Below the pieces are notes generated by a model that was not told the origin of the DNA, did no database searches, and was given only the letters and a program-made list of their open reading frames with translations. A stretch of 43,003 bases of DNA from the IMG/VR virus record IMGVR_UViG_3300045988_008747. One strand, 5' to 3'. Shown here in pieces: positions 3,060-35,581 of the stretch. Position numbers and translations under genes: made by a program. This DNA is from a virus. The number at the start of each line of letters is the position of its first letter. Positions within the stretch are counted from its first letter, which is position 1.

Positions 3060-3266
3060 TCAATGTACCATAATCTCTTCGGCAAACTTGCGGTTCTCGC
3101 CCATAAAGACCGTGTAACCGGTGGTCTCGTTTCGGAGCGTGTAACCATCGTGGTCACGCAGAAAAAGGTACTCGTTTGAGTTCCCGCTTCGGCTGAGTTC
3201 GGTGTAAGTGTAAGCCTTGCCGAGGTCTGCGATTGCAAGCGCCTTTCGAAAATTGGTCTTGGTCAT
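3060..3266 (-). CDS. Hypothetical early protein (68 aa)
   Basis: CGGAGGAA RBS. ORF MTKTNFRKALAIADLGKAYTY... Confidence 0.6.
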   Translation of the reverse strand: MTKTNFRKALAIADLGKAYTYTELSRSGNSNEYLFLRDHDGYTLRNETTGYTVFMGENRKFAEEIMVH

Positions 3267-6190: not shown

Positions 6191-7408
6191 ATGAAATGCG
6201 TAAGGCCATGCTGCCGGAAAGAGATCCCGGATGGTGCTTCTTTTTGTCCGTGGTGCGGGAAGAAGCAGCCGGAAGCCGCCCCGCAGCAAAGAAAAAAGCG
6301 CCGCCGTCCAAAGGGCAGCGGCACAGTGTACCAGAAAAAAGACGAAGGGCGTGTCAGGTCGTGGGTCGCAAGATCTGGTCGCGGTGAGCTGATCGGCAGT
6401 TTCGAGACCTCTGCAGAAGCCGTGCTTGCGCTGGACGACTACAACGCAAAGCACACCAGCGTTGTGCGCCTGCGGTATACCTTCGGGGACGTGTACGAGA
6501 AGTGGAAGGAGCTGCACTACAAAGACATCGGTCCAAAGGGCCGAGACAGCTACGAAAGGGCCTTTGCGAAGGCCCTCGAATTACACAAACGCCCCATGCG
6601 GGAGCTTAAAACCGAGGATTATCAGGCCGTGATAACTGCCCTTGCGGACGCTGGAAAGTCCCGCAGCATGTGCGAGAAGCAGCGGCAACTGTTCAGCCAA
6701 CTGTGCAAGTGGGCCATGCAGAACGATATTATCACGATCAATTACGCCGAGGGCCTGCGCTTGCCTGCCCCATCGCCCAAGAAGGAACGCACCCTGACGG
6801 ATGACGAGTTGGGCAAGATAAAAGCCATTGCAGATGATAACAGCAAGGGAAACCGCTTCCGGCAGGTCGCGCAGCTTGCAATGGTTCTCACCTACACCGG
6901 TATGCGCATTGATGAGTTGCTTTCCATGCGCCGGGATGATGTGCACCTGAACGAAGGTTACATGATCGGCGGTGAAAAAACCGATGCAGGCCGACAGCGT
7001 GTCATTCCAATCCTTGAGCCAATACGGATGATCGTGGCTGAATGGATGCTTTGCAGCCTCGGCAGCGAATTTCTGCTGCCGACATCGACCGGCAGGAAAA
7101 AGAATGTCGATACCGTGGAGCACTCATTTCGCCGTCTGATGATCGTGCTGGGAATCAATCCGGATCCCGAAAAAGTAGACCGAAAAGACATGGGCGAGCT
7201 TATAACACCGCACTCCCTGCGCCGCACTGCGGCTACGCGGCTTGTGGAAGGAAAGGCCGAGCCGACAGCCGTGCAGGCCATCCTCGGGCACGCGGATTTC
7301 TCGACGACTGCGGATTATTACACATCTCACAATGTCGAATATCTTGCAGAAGAAATGAAAAAGTTCAAGGCAACAAGCTCCCAGAAAGCTCCCAATAAAA
7401 AGAAATAA
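6191..7408 (+). CDS. int: Tyrosine recombinase (phage integrase) with an N-terminal zinc ribbon and an AP2-like arm-binding domain
   Basis: CCRKEIPDGASFCPWCG. Catalytic signatures YTGMRIDEL (R), HSLRRTAAT (HxxR) and LGHADFSTTADYYTSH (H...Y). Confidence 0.95.
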   Translation: MKCVRPCCRKEIPDGASFCPWCGKKQPEAAPQQRKKRRRPKGSGTVYQKKDEGRVRSWVARSGRGELIGSFETSAEAVLALDDYNAKHTSVVRLRYTFGDVYEKWKELHYKDIGPKGRDSYERAFAKALELHKRPMRELKTEDYQAVITALADAGKSRSMCEKQRQLFSQLCKWAMQNDIITINYAEGLRLPAPSPKKERTLTDDELGKIKAIADDNSKGNRFRQVAQLAMVLTYTGMRIDELLSMRRDDVHLNEGYMIGGEKTDAGRQRVIPILEPIRMIVAEWMLCSLGSEFLLPTSTGRKKNVDTVEHSFRRLMIVLGINPDPEKVDRKDMGELITPHSLRRTAATRLVEGKAEPTAVQAILGHADFSTTADYYTSHNVEYLAEEMKKFKATSSQKAPNKKK

Positions 7409-7429: not shown

Positions 7430-7479
7430 ATTGCTTCCCAAGCAGAAGGCGGCGGGTTCGAGTCCCGTACCCTGCTCCA
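7430..7479 (+). other. attP-like core: copy of the anticodon arm to the 3' CCA end of a tRNA-Gly(CCC), with no 5' half
   Basis: attgc-TTCCCAA-gcaga, variable aggcg, gcggg-TTCGAGT-cccgt, acceptor 3' strand accctgc, discriminator t, then cca. It sits 22 nt after the int stop. No acceptor 5' strand or D arm lies upstream. Confidence 0.7.
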
Positions 7480-7488
7480 TATTTTAAG

Positions 7489-7556
7489 AAAAATCCCACG
7501 GTATAACGTTCAAAGCAGAGCGTAGACCGTGGGATTTTTATTTCGCTTTTTTGAAA
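7489..7556. terminator. Bidirectional hairpin terminator between int/attP and the accessory cluster
   Basis: aaaatcccacggt ... accgtgggatttt (13-bp stem, 23-nt loop), flanked by T-runs on both strands. Confidence 0.65.
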
Positions 7557-27005: not shown

Positions 27006-27082
27006 TGGTGCCGCCTGTGGGGCTTGAACCCACGGCCCCCGGATTACAAATCCGGCGCTCTGGCCGACTGAGCTAAAGCGGC
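27006..27082 (-). tRNA. tRNA-Thr (anticodon UGU), CCA encoded
   Basis: GCCGCTT-TA-GCTC-AGTCGGCCA-GAGC-G-CCGGA-TTTGTAA-TCCGG-GGGCC-GTGGG-TTCAAGC-CCCAC-AGGCGGC-A-CCA. All four arms pair canonically. Confidence 0.9.
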
Positions 27083-27083
27083 A

Positions 27084-27116
27084 TAAAAAAGCGGCTGACG
27101 CTGTGCGCCAACCGCT
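27084..27116 (-). terminator. Strand-specific intrinsic terminator inside the head module
   Basis: On minus-strand RNA, a 12-bp stem (two G.U pairs that would be C.A mismatches on the plus strand), a 3-nt loop, then UUUUUU. It abuts the tRNA-Thr 5' end. Confidence 0.7.
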
Positions 27117-32544: not shown

Positions 32545-33788
32545 TCCCTCAGTTTCACAAGGCGCTTTGTGCGCACGAAATAGCGGATAGCGTCCATGCA
32601 GTGGTCGTTGACCTTCAGCACGGTGTCGTCTTTATCTGGATCCCAAGCGTACACGCCGAACTCTTCCAGCGTGTGCTTGCAGTCTCTGTAAATCTTCAGC
32701 CGCCCGGTCTGCAGCATGGTCTGCACGTCCAGAATGCCGCTCAGAACGTCATTGTTTGCGGGGGTCTGAGTAAAGCCATTCTTGCGCAGTTCCGTAATCA
32801 GAGGCAGGGCAGAGGGGTCCACGATGATCCGTTCCGGCTTGAGACCGCCCAACCACGCCTTGAGGTCTGTAACGTACTCGCCCACGGTCTTTTGCCGCTT
32901 CTGTTCGCGGCCGCTGTAGTAGTATTCCCGGGTGACGATCCAGCAGTCTGCATCTGCCTGCTTCTGGAACAGCAAAAAAACTGTTGCGTTCTGGGTTCCA
33001 AAGTCGCAAGCCACATAGACGCTCTTTGGTGACAGCTCCGGCAGCTTATCAACGACGTGCTTCTTGCGGTCGAACATGTCATATACAAGGCCCTCGGCCA
33101 CCGTCCACAGGCCCAGAATGAAGCGCTGGTAGAAAACGCCGCTGTACTGGCTGCGGTAGCGCTCTTTGATGTCCTCGGCAAGTGACAGATTGTCGTCCAT
33201 CGTGAAATGTAGATACATCATCTTGCGGGAGCGGCATTTCCGCACCCACTCGAGATAAAACCAGTGTTGCGGGCTGCCCGGGTTGCAGTTGAACCAGAAC
33301 TTTGAACCGGTGACAGAGCAACGGGCTGTGGCCTGATTGACGAAGCTCTGCGGCATCAGGGCCACCTCGTCGAAGAACGCGCCCGCAAGGGTGATGCCCT
33401 GGATCAGGTCTTGACTGCTCTCGTCTTTGCCGCCGAAAAAGTAAAACTCGTTGGTTCTGCCGCCCTTGCTGACGGTCATGCAGTTTTCTGCCCGATGCTC
33501 CTTGACGTTGTAACCACGGGCTGCAAGCTGCTGCTTGAGCGTTCCCAGCACGTTGCGCCGGAAGCTGGCGATGGTCTTGCCACACATGGCAAACTGCTGG
33601 CCGCTGTAGCAGGTCATAGCCCACTGGACGAAAGAGAAGCTCATGGCAAAGGTCTTGCCCGAACGAATAGCGCCATCGGCAATGATGCCGTTGTAGCCGC
33701 TGTATGCGCTTTGCGGTGTCCACCAGCAAAGAACCATCTTTTGCCGCTGGCTGAGGGCTTTCCAGCGAAAACCGTTACTTTTCCGCAT
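32541..33788 (-). CDS. terL: Terminase large subunit
   Basis: Walker A in GIIADGAIRSGKTFAMS. 415 aa from the ATG at 33788, with a GGAGGAAGAGG RBS. Confidence 0.9.
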   Translation of the reverse strand: MRKSNGFRWKALSQRQKMVLCWWTPQSAYSGYNGIIADGAIRSGKTFAMSFSFVQWAMTCYSGQQFAMCGKTIASFRRNVLGTLKQQLAARGYNVKEHRAENCMTVSKGGRTNEFYFFGGKDESSQDLIQGITLAGAFFDEVALMPQSFVNQATARCSVTGSKFWFNCNPGSPQHWFYLEWVRKCRSRKMMYLHFTMDDNLSLAEDIKERYRSQYSGVFYQRFILGLWTVAEGLVYDMFDRKKHVVDKLPELSPKSVYVACDFGTQNATVFLLFQKQADADCWIVTREYYYSGREQKRQKTVGEYVTDLKAWLGGLKPERIIVDPSALPLITELRKNGFTQTPANNDVLSGILDVQTMLQTGRLKIYRDCKHTLEEFGVYAWDPDKDDTVLKVNDHCMDAIRYFVRTKRLVKLRD

Positions 33789-34242
33789 GGTCGTCCTCTT
33801 CCTCCGGCAGCATCTCCACGTCATCCGGCGGGCTGATGTCTGCGGCAGCACTCAGAGCCTCAAGCAGGCCATCGTCTGGGGCTTCTATGCTGCTCTGGTC
33901 TCCCAGCATAGCAAACTTGTCCACGATGGTTCCAAACGCCGTGGACAGCTGCGGCAGCGTTGCCTCTGCGATCTTGTCCGGGTCTGCCATCGCCTGAAGG
34001 TACAGCCCGAGAAGGTCCTGTGCTTCCCCGCGCTTGCTGCCTAAGTAGGAAAGCATGTCCTGCGTGTTCTGCTCTTTTTTTAAGGCGCACAAATCCGCGC
34101 ACTTGGGATTATCTTTCACGATTTTCCGCACAGTGCTTTCTGCCACGTCGTTCAGTTTGGCGGTTCTGGTGTAGCTCTGCAGCTGAACATAGTCAGCAAT
34201 GATCTTCTTTTTTTGTCTGTCTGTCAGCCGCCTTGCGCCCAC
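33775..34242 (-). CDS. terS: Terminase small subunit (HTH type)
   Basis: GTG at 34242 after GAGAGG. MGARRLTDRQKKKIIADYVQLQSYTRTAKLNDVAESTVRKIV... with an acidic C-terminus. The longer track ORF would overlap the tRNA-like element. Confidence 0.75.
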   Translation of the reverse strand: MGARRLTDRQKKKIIADYVQLQSYTRTAKLNDVAESTVRKIVKDNPKCADLCALKKEQNTQDMLSYLGSKRGEAQDLLGLYLQAMADPDKIAEATLPQLSTAFGTIVDKFAMLGDQSSIEAPDDGLLEALSAAADISPPDDVEMLPEEEDDHAEK

Positions 34243-34312
34243 CGCCACCACCTCTCTAAACTCATGCAAAAGAAAAACCGCCCGGAAATCCGAACGGTCA
34301 AAATATCGAATG

Positions 34313-34448
34313 TGCCGCCAGCTGGGTTTGAACCAGCACCCATGGAATGGATGCGCGCAGTGGTTGGCTGTGCAGTGATGTTCCCGTGGTGTCACCAACG
34401 TTGTCCCGCCTTAAATGGGCGGCGCTCTTCCAATTGAGCTATGACGGC
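34313..34448 (-). tRNA. Noncanonical tRNA-Lys(UUU)-like element with A33 and a 68-nt insertion at the variable-loop position
   Basis: GCCGTCA/TGGCGGC acceptor, TAGCTCAATTGGAAGAGC D arm, CCGCC-CATTTAA-GGCGG anticodon arm, a 68-nt insert, then the GCTGG-TTCAAAC-CCAGC T arm. Confidence 0.4.
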
Positions 34449-34570
34449 ATATAAGCAGCGCCCGTGCATTCAGTGTGTTGGACATGCGTCAAACGGTGGG
34501 CGCTGCTGCATCCGGAACTTTCGCGGCCGGATGCCCCGCTATTGCGCCGCCCCCTCATAGGGCACGCAAG
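34449..34570 (-). ncRNA. Structured spacer between tRNA-Trp and the Lys-like element
   Basis: Perfect 8-bp stem GCATCCGG/CCGGATGC (11-nt loop) and perfect 10-bp stem AGCAGCGCCC/GGGCGCTGCT enclosing a GTTTGAC-GCAT-GTCCAAC hairpin. Confidence 0.3.
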
Positions 34571-34643
34571 CACTCCCGGCAGGGCTCGAACCTGCAACAT
34601 GCGGTTTTGGAGACCGCCGCTCTACCGCTTGAGCTACCGGAGT
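34571..34643 (-). tRNA. tRNA-Trp (anticodon CCA), CCA not encoded
   Basis: ACTCCGG-TA-GCTC-AAGCGGTA-GAGC-G-GCGGT-CTCCAAA-ACCGC-ATGTT-GCAGG-TTCGAGC-CCTGC-CGGGAGT-G. One G.G mismatch in the acceptor stem. Confidence 0.85.
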
Positions 34644-34648
34644 ATAAA

Positions 34649-34718
34649 AGCCGCCCTTGGAATCGAACCAGCCGTGTCTACACACACGCGCCGCGCTCCA
34701 AATTGCGCTCAGGCGGCC
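34649..34718 (-). tRNA. Degenerate tRNA-like element (anticodon-position stem closes a 6-nt loop; weak T stem)
   Basis: GGCCGCC/GGCGGCT acceptor (G1.U72), GCGC/GCGC D stem, CGTGT-GTGTAG-ACACG, T loop TTCGATT with only 3 Watson-Crick stem pairs. It lies 5 nt upstream of tRNA-Trp. Confidence 0.35.
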
Positions 34719-34720
34719 AT

Positions 34721-34752
34721 ATAAAAACAGCTCCGGTTCGCCGCCGGGGCTG
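34721..34752 (-). terminator. Intrinsic terminator inside the late-operon leader
   Basis: Minus-strand RNA CAGCCCCGG-CGGCGAA-CCGGAGCUG (one C.A mismatch) followed by UUUUUAU. Confidence 0.5.
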
Positions 34753-34758
34753 TTGGTT

Positions 34759-34864
34759 GGCGCACATCCTGTCAGGAAAGCTACACCTTGGCAAGGATTC
34801 TAAGGCCTTTTCTTGGCACGGGAGGTTGCACGTGCGGCCTTGCGGGTCGTCTAGTCCATGCGCC
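34759..34864 (-). ncRNA. Structured about 106-nt RNA element closed by GGCGCA/TGCGCC
   Basis: Nested stems AAGGCC/GGCCUU and GCACG/CGUGC present the loop UGCAACCUCC (anti-Shine-Dalgarno-like CCUCC). There is no ORF with an RBS. Confidence 0.3.
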
Positions 34865-34870
34865 ATACGG

Positions 34871-34941
34871 TGCGATACGGCGGAATCGAACCGCCTCCTG
34901 TCTCTCATGAGCGGCAGGCTGCCTTTGTGTCAGTGTATCGC
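34871..34941 (-). tRNA. tRNA-like element with perfect acceptor and T arms but a 9-position central hairpin in place of an anticodon arm
   Basis: GCGATAC/GTATCGC acceptor, GGCGG-TTCGATT-CCGCC T arm. The centre is CCTGCCGCT-CATG-AGAGACAGG (7 Watson-Crick pairs plus 2 mismatches). CUCAUGA is embedded but not closed by a 5-bp stem. Confidence 0.35.
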
Positions 34942-35125
34942 ATAGAAGCAGCCCGCGAAACGTGAAGAGAGCAAAGCCCGGTACCTGCAAGCAGAAAAGG
35001 AGGAAAATGCCAAGAAGGGACACGTTTCGGAGGCTGCGTGCATCGGTTTGCCTTTTGGCTTTTCCGATGATACAATTTTACACCATGTAATAGTGAAACC
35101 GCAATGTAATGACAGTGCAATGTTT

Positions 35126-35581
35126 TTAAAGGCTCAGTTCCTCCATTGCTTTGCGCCGCAAGACATAGACCATGCGCAGAGAATAATTCATATCTTTTGC
35201 GACCCTGTCCCACGTAAGGCAATCGAGATAGTACTTGTACAGCACCGTGTATGCTTTCTCGTTCTGGATCTGGGCGAGCGCGTTTCTGATCTCGAGGAAT
35301 AGCCTGTCACAGACCGCTCTTTGCTCATAAGCGCGGCGCTCCGCTTCCTCCTCGCGTTCCACCGCCCGGGCAAGGCTCTGTCCATCTTTGCTGCCGCCGG
35401 GGGCCGCGCTGAGGCTCTGGGTAATGTGCCGGGTGGCCTCCTGTGCTTCGGCCAGACGGTCAGACAGCAAGTAGTATCTTTTCTCTGCTTCGCGGTAGCG
35501 GTTCAGCCACGCCTTAACAGTGCGGAAATCGGTTTTGTCCGGCTTCGTCGTGTCGGTGTCAGGTATCCATGTGCGGGTCAT
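35126..35581 (-). CDS. Late-gene transcriptional regulator with a sigma-70 region-4-like HTH (ArpU/RinA/DUF1492-type by position)
   Basis: AAAGGAG RBS before the ATG at 35581. C-terminus NEKAYTVLYKYYLDCLTWDRVAKDMNYSLRMVYVLRRKAMEEL. It is the last gene before the terS leader. Confidence 0.7.
   Translation of the reverse strand: MTRTWIPDTDTTKPDKTDFRTVKAWLNRYREAEKRYYLLSDRLAEAQEATRHITQSLSAAPGGSKDGQSLARAVEREEEAERRAYEQRAVCDRLFLEIRNALAQIQNEKAYTVLYKYYLDCLTWDRVAKDMNYSLRMVYVLRRKAMEELSL

What the first reader, a model, noticed from the sequence alone, without database searches (positions are those of the whole stretch)
34243..35125. Late-operon leader: about 650 nt of tRNA and tRNA-like modules and structured RNA, interrupted by an intrinsic terminator (lambda 6S/tR'-like layout)
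No credible ORF lies between the late regulator gene (35126..35581) and terS (start 34242). Reading the minus strand, the order is as follows. First comes tRNA-like element 1 (34941-34871), then a 106-nt structured element (34864-34759), then a GC-rich hairpin plus U5 (34752-34721). Next are tRNA-like element 2 (34718-34649), 5 nt later a canonical tRNA-Trp(CCA) (34643-34571), then a 122-nt spacer with 8- and 10-bp perfect stems, and then a Lys(UUU)-like element with a large insertion (34448-34313). TerS follows. A promoter-proximal structured RNA ending at a terminator just upstream of the packaging genes resembles the lambda PR'-6S-tR' arrangement. This suggests that late expression is controlled by antitermination, or by RNA processing at tRNA-like sites, rather than by simple activation.
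Basis: partly seen in the sequence, partly recalled or inferred. Interest (0 to 1): 0.75.

Follow-up and report, generated by a model that had tools for sequence, protein, structure and literature searches.

The report
Phage late-operon leader packed with tRNA mimics
The 880 non-coding bases between a gut phage's late-gene regulator and its DNA-packaging genes are a conserved leader RNA ending in a terminator, and swappable RNA cassettes have been inserted into it: one real tRNA, three tRNA look-alikes and a previously undescribed folded RNA.

Summary
On the minus strand of 34243-35125 there is no gene. There is a real tRNA-Trp(CCA), a tRNA-Lys(UUU)-like gene with A33 and a 65-nt variable-arm insert, two anticodon-less tRNA-like elements, a 108-nt structured RNA ('S') and a terminator-like hairpin (T1).

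About 250 related gut-phage loci show that the core is promoter, two hairpins, T2-type terminator, then terS. This core is conserved even where the regulator is only 38-45% identical. The tRNA-like elements, S and the tRNAs are exchangeable cassettes inserted into that leader. S is a four-way-junction RNA family with strong covariation and no Rfam match. It is always preceded by a tRNA-like module, of which there are at least 10 types, each carrying the RNase P determinants A(-2), U(-1) and R73-C74-C75.

Best reading: a late-operon leader that is cut at the tRNA-like sites, and whose late genes depend on read-through of the terminators. The lambda 6S/tR' analogy fits the layout, but the regulator is sigma-region-4-like, not Q-like. 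No transcript data exist. I rate this a new variant of a known kind.

The parts
35126..35581 (-). Late regulator gene (151 aa), LtrB/DUF1492 family, with a sigma-region-4-like C-terminal domain.
   Evidence: Pfam DUF1492, 27.7 bits against a cut-off of 21.5. PHROG 36 and 248 are transcriptional regulators; PHROG 79, labelled 'Q-like', matches weakly. The AlphaFold2 model (pLDDT 78) has a C-terminal domain that matches ECF sigma -35-binding domains, TM 0.6-0.74.
35067..35104 (-). Putative late promoter: -35-like TTGCGG (35104-35099), an 18-nt spacer, -10 TAAAAT (35080-35075), and a second -10-like hexamer TATCAT (35072-35067). Inferred, not mapped.
   Evidence: Read from the sequence. The -10 is near-consensus and conserved in all clades (TGcTAAAAT, TGcTATAAT), often as tandem hexamers.
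35041..35069 (-). Leader hairpin hp1 (CAUCGG...CCGAUG, with an inner GCC/GGC stem).
   Evidence: Predicted by folding. Conserved, with replacement of both arms (AAGCGG/CCGCUU) in the L001 type.
34942..35037 (-). Leader hairpin hp2 (16 bp, variable loop) plus the UUCUAU junction (34947-34942).
   Evidence: z = -3.4. Across 24 distinct sequences, 95.8% of cells are paired and 6 pairs change on both sides; the covariation score for the whole hp1/hp2 structure is 0.287 against at most 0.116 for slid controls.
34868..34941 (-). E1: an anticodon-less tRNA-like element. It has a 7-bp acceptor stem, a 3-bp D-like stem, a 9-bp arm with a CAUG tetraloop, a canonical T arm, discriminator A and an encoded CCG.
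   Evidence: Acceptor and T-arm covariation across 26 module variants: 94.2% paired, 10 of 12 pairs covary.
34757..34864 (-). S: a 108-nt four-way-junction RNA (P1 7 bp, P2, P3/P3a with an AACCUCC loop, P4 5 bp/P4a). It belongs to a new family.
   Evidence: 61 distinct sequences in size classes from 107 to 150 nt. Covariance model R1 finds it at 139.4 bits. 98.6% of cells are paired and 16 of 28 pairs covary. No Rfam match.
34719..34752 (-). T1: an intrinsic-terminator-like hairpin plus UUUUUAUAU. It is the 3' end of the E1-S cassette.
   Evidence: Every S copy is followed within 4-12 nt by a hairpin plus U-run of varying sequence.
34649..34718 (-). E2: a second tRNA-like element, with an acceptor stem, a D arm, a 5-bp arm with a 6-nt loop, and a degenerate T stem around a canonical T loop.
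   Evidence: Precisely absent in L030, L031, L043 and L057. In distant clades it occupies the first slot and ends A-CCA.
34570..34643 (-). tRNA-Trp(CCA), canonical, with A1-U72 and G73.
   Evidence: ARAGORN and Rfam at 59.8 bits. Present in 79 of 83 loci.
34449..34569 (-). SP: a three-hairpin spacer (34569-34542, 34534-34508, 34507-34454). The third hairpin, with loop motif GUCCAACACACUGAAUGCAC at 34483-34464, corresponds to hairpin B of the ancestral leader.
   Evidence: Predicted by folding, z = -2.5. Compensatory pairs. The loop motif is shared with the clade at about 40% regulator identity.
34313..34448 (-). LysL: a tRNA-Lys(UUU)-like gene with the invariant anticodon loop CAUUUAA (A33) and a 65-nt variable-arm insertion.
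   Evidence: Rfam tRNA 47.1 bits. Compensatory changes in the anticodon, T and acceptor stems. Four different insertion versions. Precisely absent in about 30 of 80 close relatives.
34268..34299 (-). T2: an intrinsic-terminator-like hairpin (10 bp) plus UUUUUCUUUU. This is the conserved leader terminator abutting terS.
   Evidence: The same terminator family lies about 210-245 nt after the regulator stop in about 80 of 85 distant loci.
33775..34256 (-). The terS ribosome-binding site (AGAGAGGUGG, 34256-34247) and the terS ORF (GTG at 34242). terL and the portal gene follow.
27006..27115 (-). Related element outside the finding: tRNA-Thr(UGU) with an encoded ACCA, directly preceded by a strong terminator-like hairpin and UUUUUUAU, inside the late operon.

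Best explanation
The region is the transcribed, non-coding leader of the late operon (packaging, morphogenesis, lysis) of a temperate phage of human-gut Bacillota.

The ancestral core is an LtrB-type late promoter, two 5' hairpins, an intrinsic terminator (T2), and the terS ribosome-binding site directly after it. Exchangeable RNA cassettes have been recombined into this leader. In this phage they are E1 + S + T1, then E2, then tRNA-Trp, then the Lys-like tRNA.

Each tRNA or tRNA-like module is built as an RNase P substrate. A stable hairpin comes first, then UU-N-UAU, then G1 of a 7-bp acceptor stem, a T arm and, in the first-position modules and tRNA-Thr, R73-CC. The leader is therefore cut into discrete stable RNAs: the 5' leader fragment, the tRNA-like RNAs, S, tRNA-Trp and LysL.

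The cassette RNAs and all late genes lie downstream of terminator-like hairpins. Their expression therefore depends on read-through of T1 and T2, either because the terminators are leaky or because late transcription complexes resist termination.

Shown here: the elements themselves, their conservation and covariation, their cassette behaviour, the absence of genes, and the absence of promoter space after T2.

Inferred: the promoter position, RNase P cleavage, termination and read-through, and any function of S, E1, E2 and LysL.
For: 1. Non-coding: no genes are called and no protein families match.

2. Conserved core: the first ~108 nt after the regulator stop are 73-81% identical in clades whose regulator is 54-87% identical.
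- hp2 covaries.
- A T2-type terminator lies ~210-245 nt after the regulator stop and ~25-35 nt before terS in ~80 of 85 distant loci, including the 38-45% clade.
- Only ~25 nt, including the ribosome-binding site, separate the T2 U-run from the terS GTG.

3. Cassettes:
- Precise presence or absence of LysL (q676-815), E2 (q408-476) and E1-S-T1 (q185-394) among phages with 93-100% identical regulators.
- Junction repeats GCUG(C)UU-N-UAU.
- At least 10 different tRNA-like modules in the slot between hp2 and S.

4. RNase P design:
- All first-slot modules start after ...CUAU and end N73-CC(A/G).
- Acceptor and T stems are kept through compensatory change, while the central domains are unrelated.
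- U(-1), A(-2) and R73C74C75 are the known bacterial RNase P contacts (PMC4919922).
- Late-transcript processing is documented for Ltr-controlled phages phi11 and 80alpha (PMC3753634).

5. S is a real structured RNA. LysL is under purifying selection on its tRNA stems.

6. A third terminator-plus-tRNA unit lies inside the late operon at 27115-27006.
Against: - There are no transcript data of any kind. The promoter, the transcription start, termination at T1 and T2, and all cleavage sites are predictions.
- T1 and T2 are only moderately stable (-11.4 and -11.8 kcal/mol) and may be weak terminators or simply 3'-protective hairpins.
- E1 and E2 are not significant tRNA matches on their own (E 0.29 and 1.5).
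- The alignment behind one search was filtered for complementarity, and the alignment behind one search was fitted to the model, so both overstate pairing.
- LtrB-family regulators are described as plain activators, with the terminator upstream of the terS promoter (PMC3753634). This differs from the layout inferred here.
- A processing role does not explain why the first-slot module is so diverse, why S is conserved, or why LysL keeps an invariant A33 anticodon loop.
Confidence: 0.55

Rival explanations
1. Q-like antitermination proper. The near-consensus (often extended) -10 promoter fires constitutively and makes a short leader RNA of about 175 nt that ends at T2, like lambda 6S RNA. The DUF1492/sigma-4-like protein binds next to the promoter and converts RNA polymerase to a terminator-resistant form that reads through T1, T2 and the terminator at 27115.
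For: - The layout of promoter, two hairpins, terminator and terS is conserved at a fixed distance across deep clades.
- The -10 elements TGcTAAAAT and TGcTATAAT need little help from a -35 element, and the -10-like hexamers occur in tandem.
- There are terminators within the late operon.
- The regulator matches PHROG 79, labelled 'anti-termination protein Q-like', weakly (E 2.8e-5).
- The published Pcad read-through assay does not by itself separate activation from antitermination (PMC3753634).
Against: - The regulator's fold matches sigma region 4 and not any Q structure.
- For the RinA family, and by reporter assays for LtrB, the proteins are reported as activators of a terS promoter (PMC3753634).
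- The second -10-like hexamer lies 1-2 nt after the first, which is not the lambda or phage-82 spacing.
- The PHROG label is only an annotation.
Confidence: 0.2
2. Anti-defence tRNA mimics. The cassettes are the payload. The anticodon-less, CCA-ended tRNA-likes and the A33 tRNA-Lys(UUU) mimic with its giant variable arm act as decoys, inhibitors or nuclease-resistant substitutes against host tRNA-targeting defence nucleases. tRNA-Trp and tRNA-Thr, and the tRNA-Met and tRNA-Lys found in relatives, replenish cleaved host tRNAs. The leader is simply where late-timed expression is available.
For: - Cassette turnover at one slot is extreme among near-identical phages, with at least 10 module types. 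This is typical of arms-race loci.
- LysL keeps an invariant CAUUUAA loop across about 245 copies found in the fetched loci (some contigs were fetched more than once) and four insertion versions. The canonical phage tRNA-Lys next to it has CUUUUAA.
- Phage tRNAs with anticodon-arm changes are known to escape PrrC, VapC and PARIS (PMC10264068, PMC12409363).
- PARIS AriB targets Lys(UUU) and Thr(UGU), the two anticodons carried here (PMC12409363).
Against: - No defence system or host is identified.
- E1 and E2 have no conserved anticodon-like loop to mimic.
- A decoy function is untested.
- The diversity could equally reflect weak constraint on everything except the RNase P determinants.
Confidence: 0.2
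3. An ordinary phage tRNA island with decaying pseudogenes. E1, E2 and LysL are degenerating tRNA genes, S and the spacers are junk, and the hairpins are ordinary gene terminators with no regulatory role.
For: - Phage tRNA clusters are common.
- E1 and E2 fail tRNA thresholds, and ARAGORN misses LysL.
- Cassettes are gained and lost freely.
Against: - Acceptor and T stems, S, hp2 and the spacer hairpins are all maintained by compensatory substitutions.
- The encoded CC(A/G) tails and UAU leaders are kept.
- The S family spans at least 8 size classes with a common fold.
- The terminator-before-terS design is conserved far beyond the clade that carries tRNAs.
Confidence: 0.1
4. S is a cis-acting sensor, such as a riboswitch or a protein- or tRNA-binding aptamer, that decides whether T1 terminates and so gates the downstream tRNAs and late genes.
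For: - S always lies 4-12 nt upstream of a terminator.
- It has invariant junction and loop nucleotides (GRCGCAUGG, AACCUCC, AAUCC/GGAU) typical of a binding pocket.
Against: - No alternative (antiterminator) pairing between S and T1 was found, and the T1 sequences are unrelated between S classes.
- Simple-form relatives lack S yet keep the leader terminator.
Confidence: 0.1

Closest known systems
Lambda PR'-6S RNA-tR' late leader with Q antitermination
   Same: A regulator gene lies directly upstream. The late promoter is followed by a short structured leader that ends in an intrinsic terminator just before the first late gene. There are further terminators inside the late operon.
   Different: The regulator is a sigma-region-4-like LtrB/DUF1492 protein, not a Q protein. 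No qut or pause element with lambda spacing was found. The leader carries tRNA and tRNA-like cassettes. Neither termination nor antitermination is demonstrated.
Ltr superfamily late activators (RinA, ArpU, LtrA, LtrB = DUF1492) of Gram-positive phages (PMC3753634)
   Same: The gene position immediately upstream of terS, the DUF1492 domain, direct repeats just after the regulator stop, and a single late operon. Late-transcript processing is known for phi11 and 80alpha.
   Different: [quoted passage not shown] Here the terminators lie between the only plausible promoter and terS, and ~860 nt of RNA genes intervene.
Phage leader RNAs matured by RNase P (P1/P7 C4 antisense RNA, listed as a substrate in PMC4919922; P4 CI RNA, from my own knowledge) and tRNA-like processing signals (MALAT1 mascRNA, plant mitochondrial t-elements; PMC4919922)
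   Same: Small RNAs are embedded in an operon leader and released at tRNA-like acceptor structures. The tRNA-like elements lack a decoding anticodon.
   Different: No target complementarity for S beyond 5 bp to the terS ribosome-binding site. There are several tandem modules. The modules carry full T loops and encoded CCA or CCG.
Phage tRNA clusters with extra stable RNAs (T4 tRNA region with species 1 and 2 RNAs; from my own knowledge) and nuclease-evading phage tRNAs (PMC10264068, PMC12409363)
   Same: tRNA genes are co-transcribed with unexplained tRNA-like stable RNAs. [quoted passage not shown]
   Different: The position inside the late-operon leader. The A33 with a 45-85-nt variable arm in LysL is not a described escape change.
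Theta (minimal HDV-like) ribozymes next to gut-phage tRNAs (PMC10879173)
   Same: Gut Caudoviricetes, with structured RNA directly flanking viral tRNAs, including suppressor tRNAs in relatives.
   Different: There are no HDV-family Rfam hits even at E up to 10. The closing stem of S joins its two ends, which is incompatible with the nested double pseudoknot.
HK022 put RNA (from my own knowledge)
   Same: Two conserved stem-loops lie directly downstream of a promoter and upstream of terminators.
   Different: No sequence or structure model was available to compare, and a cis-antitermination activity is untested.

Membership tests
Canonical tRNA (Rfam RF00005 / ARAGORN) | Score at or above the gathering threshold with a full cloverleaf. 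| tested here: met
   tRNA-Trp scores 59.8 bits and is also called by ARAGORN. LysL scores 47.1 bits against a threshold of 29. E1 and E2 do not reach it: their best matches are tRNA-Sec at 21.2 and 18.4 bits against a gathering score of 47.
Canonical tRNA (Rfam RF00005 / ARAGORN) | A 7-nt anticodon loop with U33 and a variable region of 4-21 nt. | tested here: not met
   LysL has the loop CAUUUAA (A33), invariant in every copy found, and a 65-nt variable region. E1 has a 9-bp arm with a tetraloop, and E2 has a 6-nt loop of variable sequence. tRNA-Trp meets the feature.
Bacterial RNase P substrate | A coaxial acceptor (7 bp) plus T stem (5 bp), U(-1) and A(-2) in the leader, and R73-C74-C75. 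| tested here: met
   This is a sequence-level test only. UAU|G precedes E1, Trp, LysL, Thr and the cassettes in relatives. E1 ends A-CCG and relatives end A-CCA. The determinants are taken from PMC4919922. Cleavage itself could not be tested.
Lambda-type Q antitermination module | An intrinsic terminator between the late promoter and the first late gene. | tested here: met
   Met by prediction only. T2 lies at 34299-34268 and T1 at 34752-34719, and there is no promoter space after T2. The position is conserved in about 80 of 85 relatives.
Lambda-type Q antitermination module | A Q-family antiterminator protein encoded upstream. | tested here: not met
   The protein is DUF1492 with a sigma-region-4-like fold. 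There are no Q structures among the Foldseek PDB matches. The only hint is a weak match to a PHROG labelled 'Q-like'.
Lambda-type Q antitermination module | A sigma-dependent promoter-proximal pause element (a -10-like element in the initially transcribed region) and a short terminated leader RNA in vivo. | tested here: inconclusive
   A second -10-like hexamer lies 1-2 nt after the -10 in most clades, but the spacing differs from lambda and phage 82. RNA 3' ends cannot be tested with these tools.
Ltr (RinA/ArpU/LtrB) late-activator system | An Ltr-family gene immediately upstream of terS in the same orientation, carrying a DUF1492 or Sigma70_r4 domain. | tested here: met
   (relatives hit PF07374 and PF04545). 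The family definition is from PMC3753634.
Ltr (RinA/ArpU/LtrB) late-activator system | A terminator between ltr and the terS promoter, with the promoter adjacent to terS. | tested here: not met
   The regulator stop codon is followed directly by the promoter-like region. The terminators lie downstream of it, and T2 abuts the terS ribosome-binding site. This rests on the inferred promoter.
HDV-like theta ribozyme next to a tRNA | A nested double-pseudoknot fold starting within 5 nt of the tRNA end. | tested here: not met
   There are no HDV-family hits at E up to 10. I inspected the spacer after tRNA-Trp and the S element by hand: the spacer has no P2 5' strand, and S is closed by its own two ends.
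Known Rfam family for the S element | Any match to the 4227 covariance models. | tested here: not met
   No hit for S in the window or in five other size classes at permissive thresholds.

The most novel reading that the evidence does not exclude
The late leader is a diversifying expression platform for tRNA mimics. The anticodon-less, CCA-ended tRNA-likes and the tRNA-Lys(UUU) mimic with A33 and a giant variable arm would be decoys or resistant substitutes directed against host tRNA-targeting defence nucleases. S would be a new regulatory or structural RNA released from them by RNase P. The fast cassette turnover at a fixed slot would then record a phage-host arms race fought with RNA.
Probability: 0.2. 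Interest if true: 0.85.

Novelty: new variant of a known kind. Interest (0 to 1): 0.62.

Why it matters
If the reading is right, a large group of abundant human-gut temperate phages controls and processes its late transcript in a way not described for Ltr-regulated phages. That way is a conserved leader ending in a terminator directly at terS, used as a landing pad for RNA cassettes.

The analysis yields three concrete, testable objects:
- A new four-way-junction RNA family (S), backed by strong covariation.
- A family of CCA- or CCG-ended, anticodon-less tRNA-like RNAs that look like purpose-built RNase P substrates.
- A conserved tRNA-Lys(UUU) variant with A33 and a giant variable arm.

It also makes directly testable whether LtrB-type 'activators' work together with, or by, terminator read-through. 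The same applies to whether phage tRNA mimics serve processing or counter-defence.

Tried and rejected
- Protein-coding reading: rejected. No genes are called on 10 contigs, there are no PHROG hits, and cassette indels and RNA covariation argue against it.
- tmRNA and two-piece tmRNA: ARAGORN finds none.
- Known RNA families for S, the spacers and the leader: none in Rfam at permissive thresholds, in the window or in eight relatives.
- HDV-like theta ribozymes after the tRNAs: rejected (plus hand inspection of the folds).
- Stop-codon recoding linked to the CUA variants of the Trp tRNA in L049 and L053: nothing visible within 3 kb on either side. Whole contigs were not examined.
- LysL in cellular genomes: all 22 pattern hits in 185,579 species genomes were chance matches.
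- Searching for distant loci with a regulator alignment returned only the same close relatives. Single distant proteins as queries worked.
- Q-like fold for the regulator: not found.
- S loop AACCUCC pairing with the terS ribosome-binding site: only 5 bp, not convincing. In large S variants the motif pairs with GGAGG inside S itself.
- An antiterminator alternative between S or hairpin B and T1 or T2: none found by inspection.
- The small ORF in the longer cassette version: no PHROG match. Pfam was not successfully run (searches failed).
Full report
**What is in the sequence**

All elements below are read on the minus strand, the sense strand of the flanking genes. The region lies between a 151-aa regulator (35581-35126) and terS, terL and the portal gene.
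- The regulator is Pfam DUF1492 at 27.7 bits, and it matches PHROG regulator families.
- ARAGORN and Rfam confirm tRNA-Trp(CCA) at 34643-34570.
- Rfam also calls a tRNA at 34448-34313 (47.1 bits). It has a perfect D arm, an anticodon arm CCGCC-CAUUUAA-GGCGG, a T arm and a 65-nt insertion in the variable region. I call this element LysL.
Each nevertheless has a 7-bp acceptor stem and a GGUUCGAUUCC T loop.
- That T-loop motif occurs 6 times in the window against 0.25 expected, and 4 of the 6 lie here.
- The hairpin plus U5 at 34752-34721 (T1) is found by two scans.
It lies about 25 nt before the terS GTG and directly before its ribosome-binding site.
- No gene is called here on ten metagenome contigs, and the longest ORFs have no PHROG match.

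**The region is a mosaic of cassettes**

Eighty IMG/VR relatives with 93-100% identical regulators differ by precise presence or absence of modules:
- LysL is missing in about 30.
- E2 is missing in 4.
- E1 + S + T1 is missing in L041.
- Sixteen carry, after LysL, an extra block of about 400 nt. It holds a 75-aa ORF, a terminator and a canonical tRNA-Met(CAU) or tRNA-Lys(UUU).
- One has a tRNA-Thr(UGU).

Every module is preceded by a hairpin whose 3' arm ends GCUG(C)UU, followed by N-UAU. These repeated junctions are the likely recombination points.

**The conserved core**

I collected more distant loci using regulator homologues at 38-87% identity.
- The first ~108 nt after the regulator stop are conserved in clades whose regulator is 54-87% identical. 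They hold a near-consensus -10 element and hairpin hp1.
- hp2 is supported by covariation. 95.8% of its cells are paired and 6 pairs change on both sides. For the whole hp1/hp2 structure, 0 of 500 shuffles reach the observed score, and the covariation score is 0.287 against at most 0.116 for slid controls.
- The simplest relatives read: promoter, hp1, hp2, terminator, ribosome-binding site, terS.
- A strict terminator scan finds a T2-type hairpin (GCCGUUCGGAUCUUCCGGGCGGC plus U-run) ~210-245 nt after the regulator stop in ~80 of 85 distant loci, including the 38-45% clade. It lies ~25-35 nt before terS.
- The loop of that clade's second leader hairpin (CCAACAGCCUGAAUGUAC) recurs in the third hairpin of the window's 122-nt spacer (34483-34464).

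So the window's leader is the ancestral leader of about 220 nt, stretched to ~860 nt by insertions. Because no promoter fits between T2 and terS, late transcription must cross T2, and here also T1. A third terminator-plus-tRNA unit (27115-27006, tRNA-Thr) lies inside the late operon.

**The '106-nt structured element' is a new RNA family (S)**
- Anchored on GRCGCAUGG ... AAUCC ... GGAUGUGCGYCAA, I found 61 distinct sequences in size classes from 107 to 150 nt.
- Independent folds agree on a four-way junction.
- A covariance model built from the 108-nt class alone recovers the other classes except the 134-nt one. It finds nothing in simple-form loci.
- On that alignment 98.6% of cells pair. Sixteen of 28 pairs change on both sides. 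All six P3 pairs covary. The covariation score is 0.321 against at most 0.10 for slid controls. One caveat applies: the alignment was fitted to the model.
- P1 (7 bp) stacks on P4 (5 bp). This is the cloverleaf topology and the 12-bp geometry of a tRNA acceptor plus T stem. That resemblance is my inference only.
- No Rfam family matches S in six variants.
- S is always followed within 4-12 nt by a terminator of varying sequence.

**The slot in front of S**

Between hp2 and S there is always a tRNA-like module, in at least 10 unrelated versions:
- E1-type variants that share only GCGA...UCGC at the base of the acceptor stem;
- E2;
- an Rfam-positive element with a 3-nt 'anticodon' loop (39.7 bits);
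- near-tRNAs;
- a fourth version of LysL.

All begin right after ...CUAU and end N73-CC(A/G). Acceptor and T stems are kept by compensatory change: 94.2% paired, 10 of 12 pairs covary. These rows were pre-filtered for complementarity, which inflates the figure. U(-1), A(-2) and R73-C74-C75 are the contacts of bacterial RNase P (PMC4919922). The same UAU|G context precedes tRNA-Trp, LysL, tRNA-Thr and S itself. E1's central arm is a 9-bp hairpin with a tetraloop, so it cannot decode.

**LysL**
- Its loop CAUUUAA (A33) is invariant in every copy found. The canonical tRNA-Lys in the same arrays has CUUUUAA.
- Its stems show compensatory changes.
- The variable arm exists in four versions sharing a basal CACCAC/GUGGGUG stem.
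- It is absent from 185,579 species genomes at the pattern used.

**The regulator**

The AlphaFold2 model (pLDDT 78) shows two long helices plus a C-terminal domain. That domain matches ECF sigma -35-binding domains (TM 0.6-0.74). No Q protein appears among the matches. DUF1492 is LtrB of the Ltr superfamily, which was shown by reporter assays to be the only phage factor needed for terS transcription. In the staphylococcal phages, however, the terminator lies upstream of the terS promoter (PMC3753634). The nearest cultured relatives by terL are Streptococcus and Clostridium phages, so the host is a Bacillota.

**Verdict**

Antitermination is not shown, and the regulator is not Q-like. The processing alternative is the better supported of the two mechanisms. 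The most likely picture (confidence 0.55) is an Ltr-driven late leader that serves as a landing pad for RNase P-delimited RNA cassettes, with downstream expression depending on terminator read-through. Three things remain unexplained: the function of S, the extreme diversity of the first-slot module, and the invariant A33 loop of LysL. They keep open a counter-defence (tRNA mimic) reading.

Noticed in passing
L049 3944-4019 and L053 3933-4008 (relatives; equivalent to window 34570-34643): In two relatives the tRNA at the Trp position has anticodon CUA instead of CCA, a single C35-to-U change, which makes it an amber suppressor. No TAG-interrupted genes are visible within 3 kb on either side. 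Whole contigs were not examined.
   Followed up: partly
L015 4272-4704 (also L023, L025, L027, L030, L031 and others); inserted where window 34313/34312 is: Sixteen close relatives carry an extra cassette of about 400 nt after LysL. It holds a ribosome-binding site and a 75-aa ORF (MFERLKELICDM...), a terminator and a canonical tRNA-Met(CAU) or tRNA-Lys(UUU). The ORF has no PHROG match.
   Followed up: partly
window 27006-27115 (-): tRNA-Thr(UGU) with an encoded ACCA lies inside the structural-gene block. It is directly preceded by the strongest terminator-like hairpin on this strand (-18.7 kcal/mol) plus UUUUUUAU. Its acceptor and D arm (GCCGCUUUAGCUCAGUCGGCCAGAGC) are almost identical to those of the tRNA-Met and tRNA-Lys cassettes of relatives. 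This suggests that new specificities arise by swapping the anticodon arm on one scaffold.
   Followed up: partly
window 7430-7482 (+), next to ORF 6191-7408 (+): A tRNA 3' fragment (T arm GGGUUCGAGUCCC, acceptor 3' strand, UCCA) lies just after a 405-aa ORF and just before a bidirectional terminator (7485-7543). It is probably the attP core of an integrase that targets a host tRNA gene. The ORF was not checked against protein families. The fragment could identify the host.
   Followed up: no
window 35067-35080 (-); L337, L326, L366, L323 at about 50-70 nt after the regulator stop: The leader promoter has two adjacent -10-like hexamers in most clades, for example TAAAAT-U-TAAAAT, TATAAT-C-TAAACT and, in the window, TAAAAT-UG-TATCAT. 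The first is often in an extended TGn context. Their meaning is unknown: alternative starts or a pause signal.
   Followed up: no
L403 and L409, about 3133-3225 (relatives): After the leader terminator these relatives carry a truncated tRNA-like element. It has an acceptor stem, a D arm and a hairpin but no T arm, and it ends in a U-run just before the terS ribosome-binding site.
   Followed up: no
window 34864-34757 (-), loop 34827-34821: The S element exposes an anti-Shine-Dalgarno-like AACCUCC motif in the P3a loop. In the larger S variants the same motif pairs with a GGAGG inside S, as a possible pseudoknot or helix.
   Followed up: partly
window 34571-34565 (-) versus L030 3962-3975: The Trp tRNA of relatives is followed by an encoded CCA (G73-CCA-UCUGCG). 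In the window this has been lost (G73-CUUGCG), so the window's tRNA-Trp would need the CCA-adding enzyme.
   Followed up: no
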